From an uncultured Actinomycetota bacterium (GTDB taxonomy: Bacteria; Actinomycetota; Actinomycetes; Propionibacteriales; Propionibacteriaceae): a DNA stretch of 64,000 bases. The stretch spans positions 631,118 to 695,117 of the forward strand of contig CAVUGB010000004.1 in NCBI GenBank assembly GCA_963740705.1, read 5' to 3'. Below the pieces are notes generated by a model. That model saw only the letters and a program-made list of their open reading frames with translations. It did no database searches and was not told the DNA's origin. Of this stretch, positions 22,106-36,914 are shown piece after piece (the stretch's first letter is position 1; every line of letters starts with the position of its first letter). The position numbers and the translations under genes were made by a program.

Positions 22106-23563
22106 ATGCCGTCGATGTCCGAGCTCATAGCCGAGCATTCCGACATCAGCGAGTCCGATCAACGCTGGCTGAAGCTGCTGGTCTCGGAGTGGCAGCTGCT
22201 GGCCGATCTGAGCTTCTCCGACCTCGTGCTCTGGGTGCCCGACCGTGACCCGAACGTCTTCTGGGCGGCCGCTCAGCTGCGGCCCACCACCGGCCCGACG
22301 GCCCTGTTCGACGACGTGGTCGGTGACCTGATCGCCTACTCGCCCGAGCACCTGGTGACCGAGGCGTTCCTCAGCGGTCAGATCACCCGGACCAGCGAGG
22401 CCAAGCTCCAAGCCGGACTTCCGGTGGACACCCACGCCGTGCCGGTCAAGCTCGGCGACCGGGTCATCGCCGTGGTCGAGCAGCACACCAGCCAGCTCGG
22501 TGTACGCGCTCCCAGCCTGCTCGAACGCTCCTACCTCGAGTCCGCCGCCGAGCTGGCCCGGATGATCACGGTCGGCTCCTTCCCGATGCCGGCCGACGTC
22601 ACCAACCTGGCCTTCAGCCCCCGCGTCGGAGACGGCTTCATCCGGATCGATGCCAGTGGGGACGTGGTCTACGCCAGCCCCAACGCCCTGAGCGCCTACC
22701 GCCGGCTCGGGCTGATCGGTGACCTGGTCGACGAGCACCTGCCGACCCTGACCGCCGAGCTGTTCCCCGCCGGCCCCGGCCCGGTCGACGACTCGGTTGC
22801 CTCGGTGCTGTCCGGGCGGTCGGCCCGGCGTACGGAGCTGGTCTCCGGAGACGCCCACCTGATGATCCGGGTGCTGCCGCTGACCAACGGAGCCACCCGG
22901 GTCGGGGCGATCGTGCTGTGCCGTGATGTCAGCGACCTGCGCAGCAAGGAGCGCCAGCTGGTCACCAAGGACGCGACCATCCGCGAGATCCACCATCGGG
23001 TGAAGAACAACCTGCAGACAGTCGCCGCGCTGCTGCGGATGCAGGCCCGGCGGATCGAGTCGGCGGAGGCGAAGGTGGCGCTGAACGACGCGATGTCACG
23101 GGTGGCATCCATCGCGATCGTGCACGAGACCCTGTCCCAGGCCTTCGACGAGACGGTCGAGTTCGACCGGGTGGCCGACGGCCTGCTGCGGATGGTCGGC
23201 GACGTCGCCGCCAGCTGGGGCGGCGTGACCGCCGTGCGCGAGGGCACCTTCGGCGTGCTGTCCGCGGACATGGCCACCAGCCTGGCCATGGTCGTCACCG
23301 AGCTCTGCCAGAATGCCGTCGAGCACGGGCTGGCCGATCGTTCCGGTCAGGTGCGGGTGCTGCCGAGCTTCCACGAGGACCGGCTGCGGGTCGAGATCAG
23401 CGATGACGGCGTCGGTCTGCCCGCCGACTTCGACTGGCGGCAGTCGCGCAGCCTCGGGCTCTCGATCGTCAACACGCTGGTCGCGGAGATGGAGGGCGTG
23501 TTCGAGCTGGGCCCCCAGCCGGAGGGCCCGGGCACCCGGGCGGTGGTGGACCTCCCGCTCTAG
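22106..23563 (+). CDS. pdtaS: Cytoplasmic sensor histidine kinase, PdtaS-like
   Basis: EWQLLADLSFSDLVLW, PAS domain, EIHHRVKNNLQTVAALLR and an HATPase domain; adjacent to whiB1. Confidence 0.9.
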   Translation: MPSMSELIAEHSDISESDQRWLKLLVSEWQLLADLSFSDLVLWVPDRDPNVFWAAAQLRPTTGPTALFDDVVGDLIAYSPEHLVTEAFLSGQITRTSEAKLQAGLPVDTHAVPVKLGDRVIAVVEQHTSQLGVRAPSLLERSYLESAAELARMITVGSFPMPADVTNLAFSPRVGDGFIRIDASGDVVYASPNALSAYRRLGLIGDLVDEHLPTLTAELFPAGPGPVDDSVASVLSGRSARRTELVSGDAHLMIRVLPLTNGATRVGAIVLCRDVSDLRSKERQLVTKDATIREIHHRVKNNLQTVAALLRMQARRIESAEAKVALNDAMSRVASIAIVHETLSQAFDETVEFDRVADGLLRMVGDVAASWGGVTAVREGTFGVLSADMATSLAMVVTELCQNAVEHGLADRSGQVRVLPSFHEDRLRVEISDDGVGLPADFDWRQSRSLGLSIVNTLVAEMEGVFELGPQPEGPGTRAVVDLPL

Positions 23564-23608
23564 CCGGCGGTTGGGAGCGGCCGACCCGATCTGCCTGGGC
23601 GCACAAAA

Positions 23609-23633
23609 CGCCGGGGAAGGTGTTCCCCCGGCG
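23609..23633. terminator. Intrinsic terminator between convergent pdtaS and whiB1
   Basis: CGCCGGGG..CCCCGGCG stem followed by TTTTGT on the minus strand. Confidence 0.7.
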
Positions 23634-23663
23634 CTTGTTGACTGACTGGTTGCTGGTCGTCGT

Positions 23664-23915
23664 TCAGGCGGTGCGAATACGTGCCCGAGCGGCCCGGCGC
23701 TTCAGCGCTCGCCGCTCGTCCTCGCTGAGACCGCCCCAGACCCCGTGGTCTTGACCAGCCTCCAGCGCCCACTGCAGACAGGCGTCGCGTACGTCGCACC
23801 GTCGGCAGACTTGCTTGGCCTCTTCGATCTGGAGAAGCGCGGGACCAGTGTTCCCGATCGGGAAGAACAGCTCCGGATCTTCATCCAGACAGGCGGCCTT
23901 GTGGCGCCAATCCAT
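23664..23915 (-). CDS. whiB1: WhiB-family Fe-S transcription factor (WhiB1/WblE)
   Basis: MDWRHKAACLDEDPELFFPIGNTGPA..CRRC..C..GVWGG. Confidence 0.93.
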   Translation of the reverse strand: MDWRHKAACLDEDPELFFPIGNTGPALLQIEEAKQVCRRCDVRDACLQWALEAGQDHGVWGGLSEDERRALKRRAARARIRTA

Positions 23916-24181
23916 GGCGTACACGCTCCTTACTTGTTGCTCAGAGTCCCTGGCGTGGGACCCCGCAGGCTGGGGGAAGCCGCGAGTCCTCTACACTGAG
24001 CGGCTCGACGAACCCAAGACTTTCAAGTATTGACGGGCAATACAAGAGTTTTCGAGCGTTGACTCGCTCACATTTCAGTTCTGTTACATCTCGTTCCGGC
24101 AACCAGGGTAGCCGCCAGCCGCACCGATCGGGCAGATCGGACGCCCTCGAGGACCGTGTTCTCAGACACTAGACTCGCCGC

Positions 24182-29711: not shown

Positions 29712-30371
29712 TCAGTCCCCGGCGTGGTCGGAGACCCCGAAAACGATCTTGGTCCCGTAGGGCGCGGCCTGGATCATCCGCAGCTGGGCCAGTGCTGGAT
29801 GGTCGTCCAACAGCTTGGCGGCGTTGGCCATCGAGCGCAGCGCCGCAGTCTCGGCCCGCGCCGTCTCCAGCTGGGCCTGGGCTCGCTGCCGGGTGGTGAC
29901 GAGCTCGGCGTACGCGGCCCGCAGCTCCGTCGGGACGATCACGTCCTTGATCATCACCGAGTCGACCGAGATCCCGAGGGGCCGACCGGCCTCGCGGGCC
30001 GCGGCGGTGAGCGCTTCGATCACCGTACGCCGCGCCTCACGCAAGACCGCCGACACCTCGAGCTCGGCCAACAGCTCTCGCAGGGAGCCCTGGACGGCCA
30101 GATAGACGACTGACATCGGATCCTGGGTCCGTTCGAGGTAGGCGACCGGGTCGGCCACCGACCACAGCACGGTGGCGGTGACCCGCACCGAGACCCCATC
30201 GGCGGTCAGCACCTCCTGCGGCGCGACCGTGGTCAGCGTCGCGCGGCGGTCGACCCGTACGTAGCGGCCCCGGCGGACTCGCCGATGGCGGCCGGCGGTC
30301 AGAACCTTGACCAGGGCTCCGTCGCGGTAGACGACGACGTTCTCCGTCGTCTCGACTGTGATCTTCAACAT
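29712..30371 (-). CDS. SPFH/band-7 (slipin) family protein without an obvious membrane anchor
   Basis: PQEVLTADGVSVRV, IKDVIVP and ARAETAALRSMANAAKLLDDHPALAQLR; GGAGGTGA Shine-Dalgarno at 30378-30385. Confidence 0.88.
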   Translation of the reverse strand: MLKITVETTENVVVYRDGALVKVLTAGRHRRVRRGRYVRVDRRATLTTVAPQEVLTADGVSVRVTATVLWSVADPVAYLERTQDPMSVVYLAVQGSLRELLAELEVSAVLREARRTVIEALTAAAREAGRPLGISVDSVMIKDVIVPTELRAAYAELVTTRQRAQAQLETARAETAALRSMANAAKLLDDHPALAQLRMIQAAPYGTKIVFGVSDHAGD

Positions 30372-30429
30372 GGGTGCTCACCTCCGTGGTCGGAATCGTG
30401 CTGATTGGCGGGTGCTTGGCTGGACAGGG

Positions 30430-30645
30430 TGGACGTCGGCGAACGACACGACGACGTACGGGACCGAGGTCGGCCCGGCCGGAACCGGACGTCACCTGGT
30501 CGCAAGGTGCGTCACCGCTGATGTCGTCCGCCGACGCCGCTACTGGGAGTGGTGCCGTTGCCGGCGTAGCCGTTCAGGGCGGTGCCCCAGGTACGACGCG
30601 CGGAAGGTCTCTCGGCACACCGGGAGCCACCGCTGATCCGGGGCG
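30430..30645 (-). ncRNA. Candidate structured RNA upstream of the SPFH gene, with a degenerate tRNA-like domain
   Basis: -10 hexamer TAGAGT at 30652-30657; 18-bp stem 30538-30521/30449-30432 with G-U pairs valid only on the minus strand; GCAA tetraloop; T-arm-like hairpin. Confidence 0.6.
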
Positions 30646-30741
30646 AGGCCAACTCTAGGTTGCCGTGCCCGCCGCTGCCACTGGGTTTTCCGCACAACAA
30701 TCTGGGTGCGGGTGGGCGGTCGGCGGTCCTACAGTCAGGTC

Positions 30742-31236
30742 GTGGTGGAGATCCGGAGGCCGGTCGAGGCGGATGCCGCGGCGGCCACAGCCTGCCAGCT
30801 GGCGTGCTGGCGCGAGGCGTACGCAGGGTTGGTGCCGCCCGACCGCCTGACAGCGGCCATGGCCGATGTCGCTGCCCACACCGAACGTTGGCGAAGCCGC
30901 ATCCGCTCCGAGAACGAGCGCTGGCTCGCCGTCGACCAGGACGAGGTGGTGGGCTTCGCCCTGGCCGGGCCCAACCACGAAGTCGATGTCGAGGTCGACT
31001 GGCAGCTCTACGCGATCTACGTCCGCCAGGTCTACTGGGGCACGGGTCTGGGCCGTCGGCTGATCAAGGCGGCGATCCATGACCACGACGCCGTGCTCTG
31101 GGTATTCCGCGACAACCACCGAGCCCGACGCTTCTACGCCGCCCACGGCTTCGTCCCCGATGGCACCGAGCAGGAAGAGCCCACCTTCGGGGGCGTCGAG
31201 ATCCGCATGCTCCGCCGGTCCACCTACTCGGGCTGA
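30742..31236 (+). CDS. GNAT-family N-acetyltransferase
   Basis: WREAYAGLVP, LYAIYV..WGTGLGRRL and LWVFRDNHRARRFY. Confidence 0.88.
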   Translation: MVEIRRPVEADAAAATACQLACWREAYAGLVPPDRLTAAMADVAAHTERWRSRIRSENERWLAVDQDEVVGFALAGPNHEVDVEVDWQLYAIYVRQVYWGTGLGRRLIKAAIHDHDAVLWVFRDNHRARRFYAAHGFVPDGTEQEEPTFGGVEIRMLRRSTYSG

Positions 31237-36701: not shown

Positions 36702-36842
36702 GCGTTGGAACCCCTCGACTCGGCCCGGCGGTCAGACGGATGTGAGGCCTTACCCGGAAAACGCACCACTGGTTCGACGGTCGTCCATGGGACACGTCAG
36801 GGATCCGCGAACCAGTGATGCGAAATCAGGGCCAGGCATCAG

Positions 36843-36914
36843 CGCCCCCGGCAGGATTCGAACCTGCGCTCCCGCCTCCGGAGGGCGGTGCTCTATCCCC
36901 TGAGCTACGGGGGC
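36843..36914 (-). tRNA. tRNA-Arg (anticodon CCG), CCA not encoded
   Basis: GCCCCCG/CGGGGGC acceptor stem, D arm, CCGCC-CT-CCG-GA-GGCGG anticodon arm and GGTTCGAATCC T loop. Confidence 0.97.

What the first reader, a model, noticed from the sequence alone, without database searches (positions are those of the whole stretch)
29712..30660. Structured RNA with a degenerate tRNA-like domain upstream of a stand-alone soluble band-7/SPFH gene: candidate RNA-protein module
Seen in sequence: a -10 hexamer (TAGAGT, minus strand, 30652-30657) lies about 280 nt before the SPFH start, and the intervening minus-strand sequence folds almost throughout. Elements: (a) a stem 30635-30620/30591-30575 enclosing GAGAGACCUUCC; (b) GCUAC/GUAGC enclosing a GCCG-GCAA-CGGC GNRA hairpin (30570-30539); (c) an 18-bp helix 30538-30521/30449-30432 whose three non-Watson-Crick positions are all G-U on this strand (A-C on the other), arguing for selection on RNA structure; (d) inside it a CACCU/AGGUG hairpin (30509-30493), a T-arm-like GUCCGG-UUCCGG-CCGGGC (30490-30473) and a small GAC-CUCG-GUC hairpin (30471-30462). 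AUCAGCGGUG...ACCUU(C/G)CG occurs twice (30637-30601 and 30522-30501), suggesting two related domains. Established knowledge: a T arm followed by a loop-closed acceptor-like stem is the arrangement in YrlA-type Y RNAs. From memory (needs checking), band-7 genes with tRNA-like ncRNAs were noted computationally in RtcB/Ro RNA-repair loci. Inference: no rtcB or Ro/TROVE gene is in this window, so this may be a minimal two-part system (RNA plus cage-forming SPFH protein) or an unrecognised cis-regulatory element.
Basis: partly seen in the sequence, partly recalled or inferred. Interest (0 to 1): 0.85.

Follow-up and report, generated by a model that had tools for sequence, protein, structure and literature searches.

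The report
WhiB7-type stress RNA heading slipin gene
A conserved folded RNA of about 215 bases sits directly in front of a small ring-forming (SPFH/slipin) protein gene behind a promoter of the type that actinobacteria switch on when antibiotics stall ribosomes, and it likely partners that protein as a stand-alone, reduced form of a tRNA-like RNA predicted earlier in RNA-repair operons.

Summary
Window folding alone is unremarkable (z -0.6). Ortholog leaders show a conserved three-part RNA that is not in Rfam: 5' rod D1 (30584-30644), a tRNA remnant, and 3' rod D3 (30431-30538), both rods with compensatory changes. Most orthologs carry a true T arm (82 of 96). Genome-wide scans find D1 (17 of 17 hits) and D3 (8 of 8) only ahead of this slipin gene. 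New here: the promoter fits the published WhiB7/WblC consensus in 60 of 80 leaders (shuffles 2.4). A matrix from those promoters ranks whiB7, pheS and rtcB among this genome's top five sites. No rtcB lies within 6 kb in 80 loci, and Ro was found in 1 of 19 carriers. Best reading: a translation-stress RNA-slipin cassette, likely a ribonucleoprotein, descended from the predicted b7a-tRNA/band-7 module; it is not a YrlA. Binding, processing and expression are untested. The scan noted tRNA-mimic/slipin leaders in at least eight other genomes; the WhiB7 link was not found in those notes.

The parts
30685..30690 (-). AT-rich GAAAAC motif of the WhiB7/WblC type, 4 bp upstream of the -35 box (published spacing 3 bp)
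   Evidence: Consensus GAAAWY from PMC7157823; A tract at a fixed place in ortholog promoters; coordinates
30675..30680 (-). -35 box TGGCAG (TKGMNN), 17 bp from the -10 box
   Evidence: Sequence; consensus; matrix score 18.2, rank 8 in the genome
30652..30657 (-). -10 box TAGAGT; start site predicted at about 30644-30645, the first base of D1
   Evidence: 7-8 nt spacing from PMC7157823; start site inferred
30584..30644 (-). Domain D1: 5' rod with closing helix, conserved internal loop (AG / GYRU), covarying helix GYRG:CYRC and an apical hairpin
   Evidence: Alignment A2, pair counts, tree-based co-changes, model R1 59.6 bits with this copy in training
30539..30583 (-). tRNA remnant: small hairpin 30570-30582, GCCG-GCAA-CGGC hairpin and D-loop-like AACGGCA; the T arm that follows in orthologs is missing here
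   Evidence: linker matches L105, L109 and L118 up to CACUCC, where their T arm begins
30431..30538 (-).
   Evidence: Alignment A3, pair counts, model R2 61.4 bits with this copy in training, z -3.6
30386..30430 (-). C-rich, G-poor linker without a U tract; candidate processing site
   Evidence: Ortholog linkers: median 44 nt, range 14-81, 44% C, 0 of 60 with a U tract; genome background 34% C; cleavage inferred
30379..30385 (-). Shine-Dalgarno GGAGGUG
29712..30371 (-). 219-aa soluble band-7/SPFH (slipin) gene with an Arg-rich loop at residues 28-36
   Evidence: PF01145; model pLDDT 95, nearest solved folds are stomatin cages; self-association model 0.46 vs best control 0.00
30697..31236 (+). 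Divergent GNAT acetyltransferase gene (ORF from 30742) with its own WhiB7-type promoter; a neighbour, not a conserved part of the cassette
   Evidence: PF00583; matrix rank 15; no neighbour family shared widely across 80 loci

Best explanation
This is a two-part cassette in which a WhiB7/WblC-type promoter is predicted to drive, under ribosome stress, one transcript that begins with a conserved folded RNA (rod D1, tRNA remnant, rod D3) and continues into a slipin gene whose product likely forms a stomatin-like ring and likely binds that RNA. Shown: the conserved, covarying D1 and D3; their exclusive place ahead of this gene; the promoter consensus; the T arm in most orthologs and its repeated loss; the absence of adjacent rtcB or Ro. 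Inferred: induction by WhiB7; release of a stable RNA of about 215 nt by a cut in the C-rich linker; binding through the conserved internal loops of D1 and D3; and a role in holding damaged tRNA or rRNA, or in presenting a tRNA-elbow decoy, alongside an RtcB encoded elsewhere. Because this copy and other lineages lost the T arm but kept both rods, the rods and not the tRNA mimic are the likely functional core.
For: Covariation on structure-blind alignments. D1 pair 31:65 is AU in 47 and GC in 16 of 63; pair 30:66 is CG 57, UA 5, UG 1; 0 of 500 shuffles reach the score. On the protein tree all 4 changes at 31:65 hit both sides, and the crossed pairs 30:65 and 31:66 show 0. D3: 36 of 38 pairs have two-sided changes. 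RNA-first scans of 141 genomes: 17 of 17 D1 hits and 8 of 8 D3 hits are single-copy and directly upstream of this gene; 0 hits in 21 paralog loci. Promoter: 60 of 80 match the published consensus, shuffles mean 2.4, maximum 7. A matrix trained without this genome ranks pheS 2nd, the whiB7 leader 4th, rtcB 5th and this cassette 8th. pheS and rtcB are WblC targets in S. coelicolor (rtcB 320-fold). Relatives sit under translation-stress regulators elsewhere: rtcR next to tRNA-like RNA and slipin in Citrobacter and Burkholderia, and slipin alr0740 up 42-fold without TrcR. No expression platform was found: no U tract (0 of 60), no fixed frame (27/22/25), SD paired into D3 with mean probability 0.01. 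Four-copy model: score 0.46 vs best control 0.00, contacts agree at least 88%, pLDDT at least 72; this mark was reached by 20 of 30 solved pairs and 1 of 23 single chains, and the pass may come from likeness to solved stomatin.
Against: No expression, processing or binding data. Strict upstream position fits a cis element equally well. The RNA also precedes membrane-anchored members (L190, L191, L195 all have the T arm; L190 D1 E 3.5e-5), so the Arg-rich loop of the soluble clade (4.6 vs 2.1 basic residues of 9) is not required for the association. RtcB is only mildly more common in carriers (16 of 19 vs 13 intact plus 2 broken of 20), and WhiB7-type rtcB promoters were seen in only 5 of 22 other genomes. 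About half of the top 20 matrix hits are unrelated genes. D1 and D3 models do not match the three proteobacterial RtcR-type leaders, so descent from b7a-tRNA rests on protein homology (31% identity) and layout. The SD pairs upstream with P above 0.5 in 16 of 52 folds. T-arm loss in this copy was not checked in reads, and the genome's rtcB carries a frameshift.
Confidence: 0.5

Rival explanations
1. The RNA is a cis-regulatory leader: the slipin ring or a tRNA-elbow-binding factor binds it and sets translation or stability of the slipin message, for example by switching the T-arm 3' strand between the T stem and the Shine-Dalgarno sequence.
For: Always directly upstream, same strand, single copy. 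The T-arm 3' strand can pair with the SD (mean -10.6 kcal/mol), and the SD pairs upstream with P above 0.5 in 16 of 52 folds. This copy keeps CACUCC ahead of D3.
Against: Same-locus T-arm/SD pairing is no better than cross-locus (permutation p 0.75), and true tRNA T arms pair almost as well (-9.2). No terminator and no conserved upstream frame. The D3-SD distance varies from 14 to 81 nt. The T arm is lost repeatedly. The promoter already supplies a stress input.
Confidence: 0.3
2. The RNA acts in trans without the slipin, as a tRNA decoy or a guide or substrate for RtcB-type repair, and the two are only co-regulated.
For: Canonical T loop with a covarying 4-bp stem in 76-78 of 78; rtcB has the same promoter type in this genome; a guide or substrate role was proposed for the Pelobacter RNA.
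Against: No hit away from the slipin gene among 17 D1 and 8 D3 hits; T arm dispensable; no acceptor stem (20 of 67 vs 18.5 expected); 3 of 19 carriers had no RtcB match.
Confidence: 0.1
3. The rods only protect the transcript ends from nucleases, and the tRNA part is a decaying relic.
For: D1 starts at the predicted start site; the middle part is variable and often reduced.
Against: Loop nucleotides in D1 and D3 and the T-loop consensus are conserved across families and in membrane-anchored relatives, more than a stability hairpin needs.
Confidence: 0.1

Closest known systems
b7a-tRNA with band-7 protein in RtcB RNA-repair loci (Burroughs and Aravind 2016; not held, known here only through passages of 10.1101/312249 and of PMC3543383 on Pelobacter Pcar_R0061)
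   Same: tRNA-derived RNA directly upstream of a homologous band-7 gene (31% identity to the RtcB-adjacent Burkholderia slipin); T arm in most copies; control by a translation-stress regulator.
   Different: No adjacent rtcB or rtcR (0 of 80 loci for rtcB); no cloverleaf; two long rods that do not match the three proteobacterial leaders tested; WhiB7-type rather than sigma-54 promoter; short 219-aa protein; T arm dispensable.
YrlA Y RNA with Ro60/Rsr (10.1101/312249, passages)
   Same: Modular RNA with a tRNA T loop, encoded beside a ring-type protein, in a stress setting.
   Different: Order is D-loop-like motif then T arm, not T, closed acceptor, D; no enclosing Ro stem; no Rfam match; TROVE in 1 of 19 carriers.
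WblC/WhiB7 regulon of Streptomyces coelicolor (PMC7157823)
   Same: Promoter layout GAAAWY, -35, 16-19 bp, TANNNT; the regulon includes rtcB, pheS and noncoding RNAs.
   Different: No band-7, SPFH, stomatin or slipin entry by word search of its 10 supplements (many genes there are 'hypothetical'); no structured RNA of this kind in the passages read.
Stomatin/HflKC/major vault protein SPFH cages
   Same: Fold (Foldseek E 3e-17 to stomatin, 5e-8 to major vault protein) and predicted side-by-side self-association.
   Different: No membrane anchor, an Arg-rich loop where anchored relatives are hydrophobic, and a dedicated upstream RNA.

Membership tests
b7a-tRNA/band-7 module | RNA adjacent to a band-7 gene | tested here: met
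   17 of 17 D1 and 8 of 8 D3 hits
b7a-tRNA/band-7 module | RNA strongly resembles an authentic tRNA | tested here: not met
   ARAGORN finds none at the leader in 60 loci or the window; no acceptor stem; only a T arm in 82 of 96, none in this copy
b7a-tRNA/band-7 module | RtcB encoded adjacent | tested here: not met
   0 tblastn hits in 80 loci of up to 6 kb each side and in 28 metagenome loci; own rtcB on another contig
b7a-tRNA/band-7 module | Match to the original RNA alignment and band-7 clade of the 2016 paper | not testable with these tools
   Paper and supplements not held
YrlA Y RNA | Ro60/TROVE gene adjacent or in the genome | tested here: not met
   None found in own genome, 83% complete; 1 of 19 carriers, with weak partial matches
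YrlA Y RNA | Permuted order T arm, closed acceptor stem, D arm inside a Ro-binding stem | tested here: not met
   D1 closes before the T arm, a D-loop-like motif precedes it in 37 of 66 (no shuffle control), T-to-D3 spacer varies up to 17 nt
YrlA Y RNA | Rfam model match | tested here: not met
   No YrlA row at E up to 10 in the window or two ortholog leaders; no gathering hit in 13 loci
WhiB7/WblC regulon | AT motif, -35 and -10 with 16-19 bp spacer | tested here: met
   60 of 80 vs shuffles 2.4, one mismatch allowed per element
WhiB7/WblC regulon | whiB7 gene with AT hook and long leader in the genome | tested here: met
   L151: Pfam WhiB, GVWGG and RPRGRP, upstream ORF and same promoter type; the WhiB7 label rests on recalled motifs
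WhiB7/WblC regulon | WhiB7-dependent induction or binding | not testable with these tools
   No RNA run listed
Riboswitch or attenuator leader | Expression platform (terminator, SD sequestration or leader peptide) | tested here: inconclusive
   No U tract, no fixed frame, no locus-specific anti-SD covariation, but SD pairing is possible

The most novel reading that the evidence does not exclude
A bacterial vault-like particle: a soluble SPFH cage that captures its own co-transcribed RNA through two new RNA motifs and is built on demand by the WhiB7 antibiotic response to hold or sort damaged translation RNAs, with tRNA mimicry as an optional add-on.
Probability: 0.25. Interest if true: 0.9.

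Novelty: new variant of a known kind. Interest (0 to 1): 0.62.

Why it matters
The b7a-tRNA/band-7 pairing was described as unvalidated in the 2018 preprint read here. This variant gives a compact two-part version in culturable, harmless actinomycetes, with a predicted inducing condition (ribosome-targeting drugs via WhiB7), defined RNA domains, and natural deletion alleles that separate the rods from the tRNA mimic. That makes it directly testable whether an SPFH protein is an RNA-binding cage, and it adds a candidate structured RNA to the WhiB7 intrinsic-resistance regulon.

Tried and rejected
Single-sequence folding of the window leader: uninformative. A loose D1 pattern over 401 genomes gave 10 genomes against 7 control matches and was dropped. 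One search read the divergent ORF on the wrong strand; corrected. Rfam and ARAGORN: nothing at the leader. Phage collection: no protein match. Conserved neighbour genes: none beyond genus-level synteny; downstream gene orientation 45 same, 34 opposite. Coding leader: no fixed frame. Anti-SD switch: no covariation. Homology of D1 or D3 to three proteobacterial leaders and one Methylobacterium leader: no significant match; a chance R1 hit at E 0.0036 shows the E-values are rough. Phylum-wide R1 scan: 4 hits beyond own at E up to 0.01 in 150 genomes, only 1 before a slipin gene; one of the 3 negatives is from unpublished genome G148. Expression: no RNA holder listed. A shuffle control for the D-loop-like motif was not obtained. 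RNAalifold on A2 keeps only the P2 helix plus an alternative 2-bp pairing, so the D1 internal loop is unresolved. M. abscessus 'band 7' MAB_3777 is a much longer gene and is unchanged in the two rows shown.

Full report
Observation. Alone it is not unusual: z -0.60 against 200 shuffles, and no Rfam or ARAGORN match. The 18-bp helix with three G-U pairs is right. Stem (a) and the small hairpins in (d) lose to other pairings (probabilities 0.14, 0.02, 0.00). The 10-nt repeat is reached by 5% of unrelated D1/D3 pairs.

Comparative anatomy. I took 8 close ortholog loci from relatives and the best 80 of 432 from the species collection (Nocardioides, Knoellia, Microlunatus, Mycobacterium, Gordonia and others). 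Their leaders share one layout: promoter, rod D1, a short tRNA-like middle with a T arm, rod D3, a C-rich linker, SD and start. D1 was aligned without structure from 63 of 74 anchored copies after a 90% identity filter. Its core helix covaries with no unpaired case in 63 rows at two positions; on the protein tree these are 4 and 3 separate two-sided changes, and the crossed controls show none. D3 (60 rows, chosen by their own fold, so counts lean towards it) has two-sided changes at 36 of 38 pairs, far above shuffled and slid controls. Of the 80 loci, 55 were in the D1 training set, 21 of 23 held-out ones were hit (some are near copies of training rows), 2 duplicate other rows, and the 2 misses show degenerate D1 by eye. 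Twenty-one paralog loci gave no hit for either model.

Linkage. RNA-first scans of 141 genomes of the order gave 17 D1 hits and 8 D3 hits, one per genome, all directly before this gene; 8 of the 17 had no identical core among earlier loci. A phylum-wide scan of 150 genomes gave 4 weak further hits, 1 before a slipin gene and 3 not (one negative is from unpublished genome G148). In 20 of 28 more distant metagenome loci with upstream DNA, 19 have a T arm and 7 a D1 hit at E below 0.05; three encode membrane-anchored members, whose lineage I did not determine. One syntenic relative has a single deletion from the D1 tip into the middle of the gene.

The tRNA part. A strict T-arm pattern is in 82 of 96 loci. 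The 14 without it need 7 changes on a quick tree, at least 5 forced by strong branches; one of them (L072) has a variant T loop. The window is one of these, while its three nearest relatives on the tree keep the T arm. Its middle resembles L105, L109 and L118 up to CACUCC and then runs into D3. The T stem is 4 bp and covaries, but there is no acceptor stem, a 7-nt anticodon-like loop is seen in only 26 of 66, and ARAGORN finds no leader tRNA in the 60 of 80 loci scanned. The order is not that of YrlA.

Promoter. An A tract lies at a fixed distance upstream of the -10 box. The published WblC consensus (PMC7157823, passages), with one mismatch allowed per element, matches 60 of 80 promoters against 2.4 in shuffles. 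A matrix trained on 79 other loci, run on this genome, puts at its top a GNAT-like gene, pheS, the leader of a WhiB gene with AT hook and upstream ORF, rtcB, an ABC transporter, this cassette, an MFS pump, a helicase, the divergent GNAT and a phosphotransferase; the other 10 of the top 20 are unrelated or unclear. Only rtcB, WhiB and the divergent GNAT were confirmed by Pfam; the other names are from my recognition of the sequences. pheS and rtcB are WblC targets in S. coelicolor (Table S2, part 1 of 3 and a word search). In other genomes 5 of 22 rtcB promoters score 13 or more within 200 nt, against 0 of 72 controls; none of the 12 from one genus do.

Partners. No rtcB lies in 80 loci. RtcB is in 16 of 19 carriers and 13 (plus 2 broken) of 20 genomes without a hit; TROVE is in 1 of 19 carriers (with G472 moved to carriers). 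This genome has a frameshifted rtcB on another contig and no TROVE match at 83% completeness. Longer homologs in Citrobacter, E. coli and Burkholderia follow tRNA-like RNAs and lie with rtcR, rlaP or rtcB; the RNA models do not match those leaders.

Protein. PF01145, confident model, nearest to stomatin cages. A four-copy model passes its mark (0.46 vs best control 0.00; 20 of 30 solved pairs and 1 of 23 single chains reach it; agreement at least 88%, pLDDT at least 72), possibly from likeness to solved structures. Close soluble members have a basic loop (4.6 of 9 residues, n 116) where anchored ones are more hydrophobic (2.1 basic, n 46), but anchored members carry the RNA too.

Mechanism. 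The promoter accounts for a stress input, and I found no terminator, leader peptide or covarying anti-SD, so a structural RNA is favoured over a sensor. The linker is C-rich (44% vs 34%), and mycobacterial RNase E cuts before cytidines (PMC10641625, abstract), so release of the RNA is plausible but inferred. I put the RNA-protein particle at 0.5 and a cis leader at 0.3. That the RNA is a real conserved element behind a WhiB7-type promoter is much firmer, about 0.9.

Novelty. The pairing of a tRNA-like RNA with band-7 was predicted (10.1101/312249 passages; PMC3543383 passages). The 2016 source paper and its supplements were not held and could list these loci; bioRxiv supplements were closed. 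Searches of the held library found 1 paper for b7a-tRNA, 2 for slipin with rtcB (PMC10272220 passages read), and none for SPFH with RNA motif, covariation and intergenic, whiB7 with SPFH, or SPFH with tRNA-like and noncoding RNA. PMC11237479 passages did not bear on it; PMC10727445 was searched in supplements only. Earlier scan notes describe tRNA-mimic leaders before slipin in eight other genomes; none held WhiB7 in two word look-ups. Verdict: a new variant of a predicted kind, with a new RNA fold, a testable inducer and a natural T-arm deletion.

Noticed in passing
window 30697-31236 (+): Divergent GNAT acetyltransferase with its own WhiB7-type promoter back to back with the RNA promoter; a syntenic relative (L008) has the same layout.
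   Followed up: partly
L008:1090-1540 (G027): Syntenic cassette with one deletion from the D1 tip to about residue 100 of the slipin; promoter retained.
   Followed up: partly
G000:C1:1362386-1363632 (L122, L123): The genome's rtcB is in two frames (possible assembly error) and has a WhiB7-type promoter ranked 5th in the genome.
   Followed up: partly
L151:951-1770: Likely whiB7 with a long leader, an upstream ORF and its own WhiB7-type promoter.
   Followed up: partly
L005-L007, L133, L136, L141, L143, L144, L187: A whole clade lacks the T arm and has a distinct D3 tip (GGCUGCUCG...GAGCCGGUWCCUCCGCC), which contains CCUCC close to the start region.
   Followed up: no
L046, L049, L054, L055 and kin: Knoellia-type leaders carry an extra 5' extension and a mini tRNA with a CU-GUC-AA loop right before the T arm.
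   Followed up: no
P0164, P0175, P0210, P0266: Family members of 490-890 aa with up to 8 repeated matches to the SPFH N-terminal part.
   Followed up: no
L127:1985-2155: Two tandem tRNA-like elements between rtcR and slipin-rtcB in Burkholderia.
   Followed up: partly
L070: A contig labelled Sphingomonas groups with Nocardioides on the slipin tree; likely a binning error.
   Followed up: no
window 22106-23924 and 36842-36914: A sensor kinase next to a WhiB-family gene, and an ordinary tRNA-Arg(CCG).
   Followed up: no
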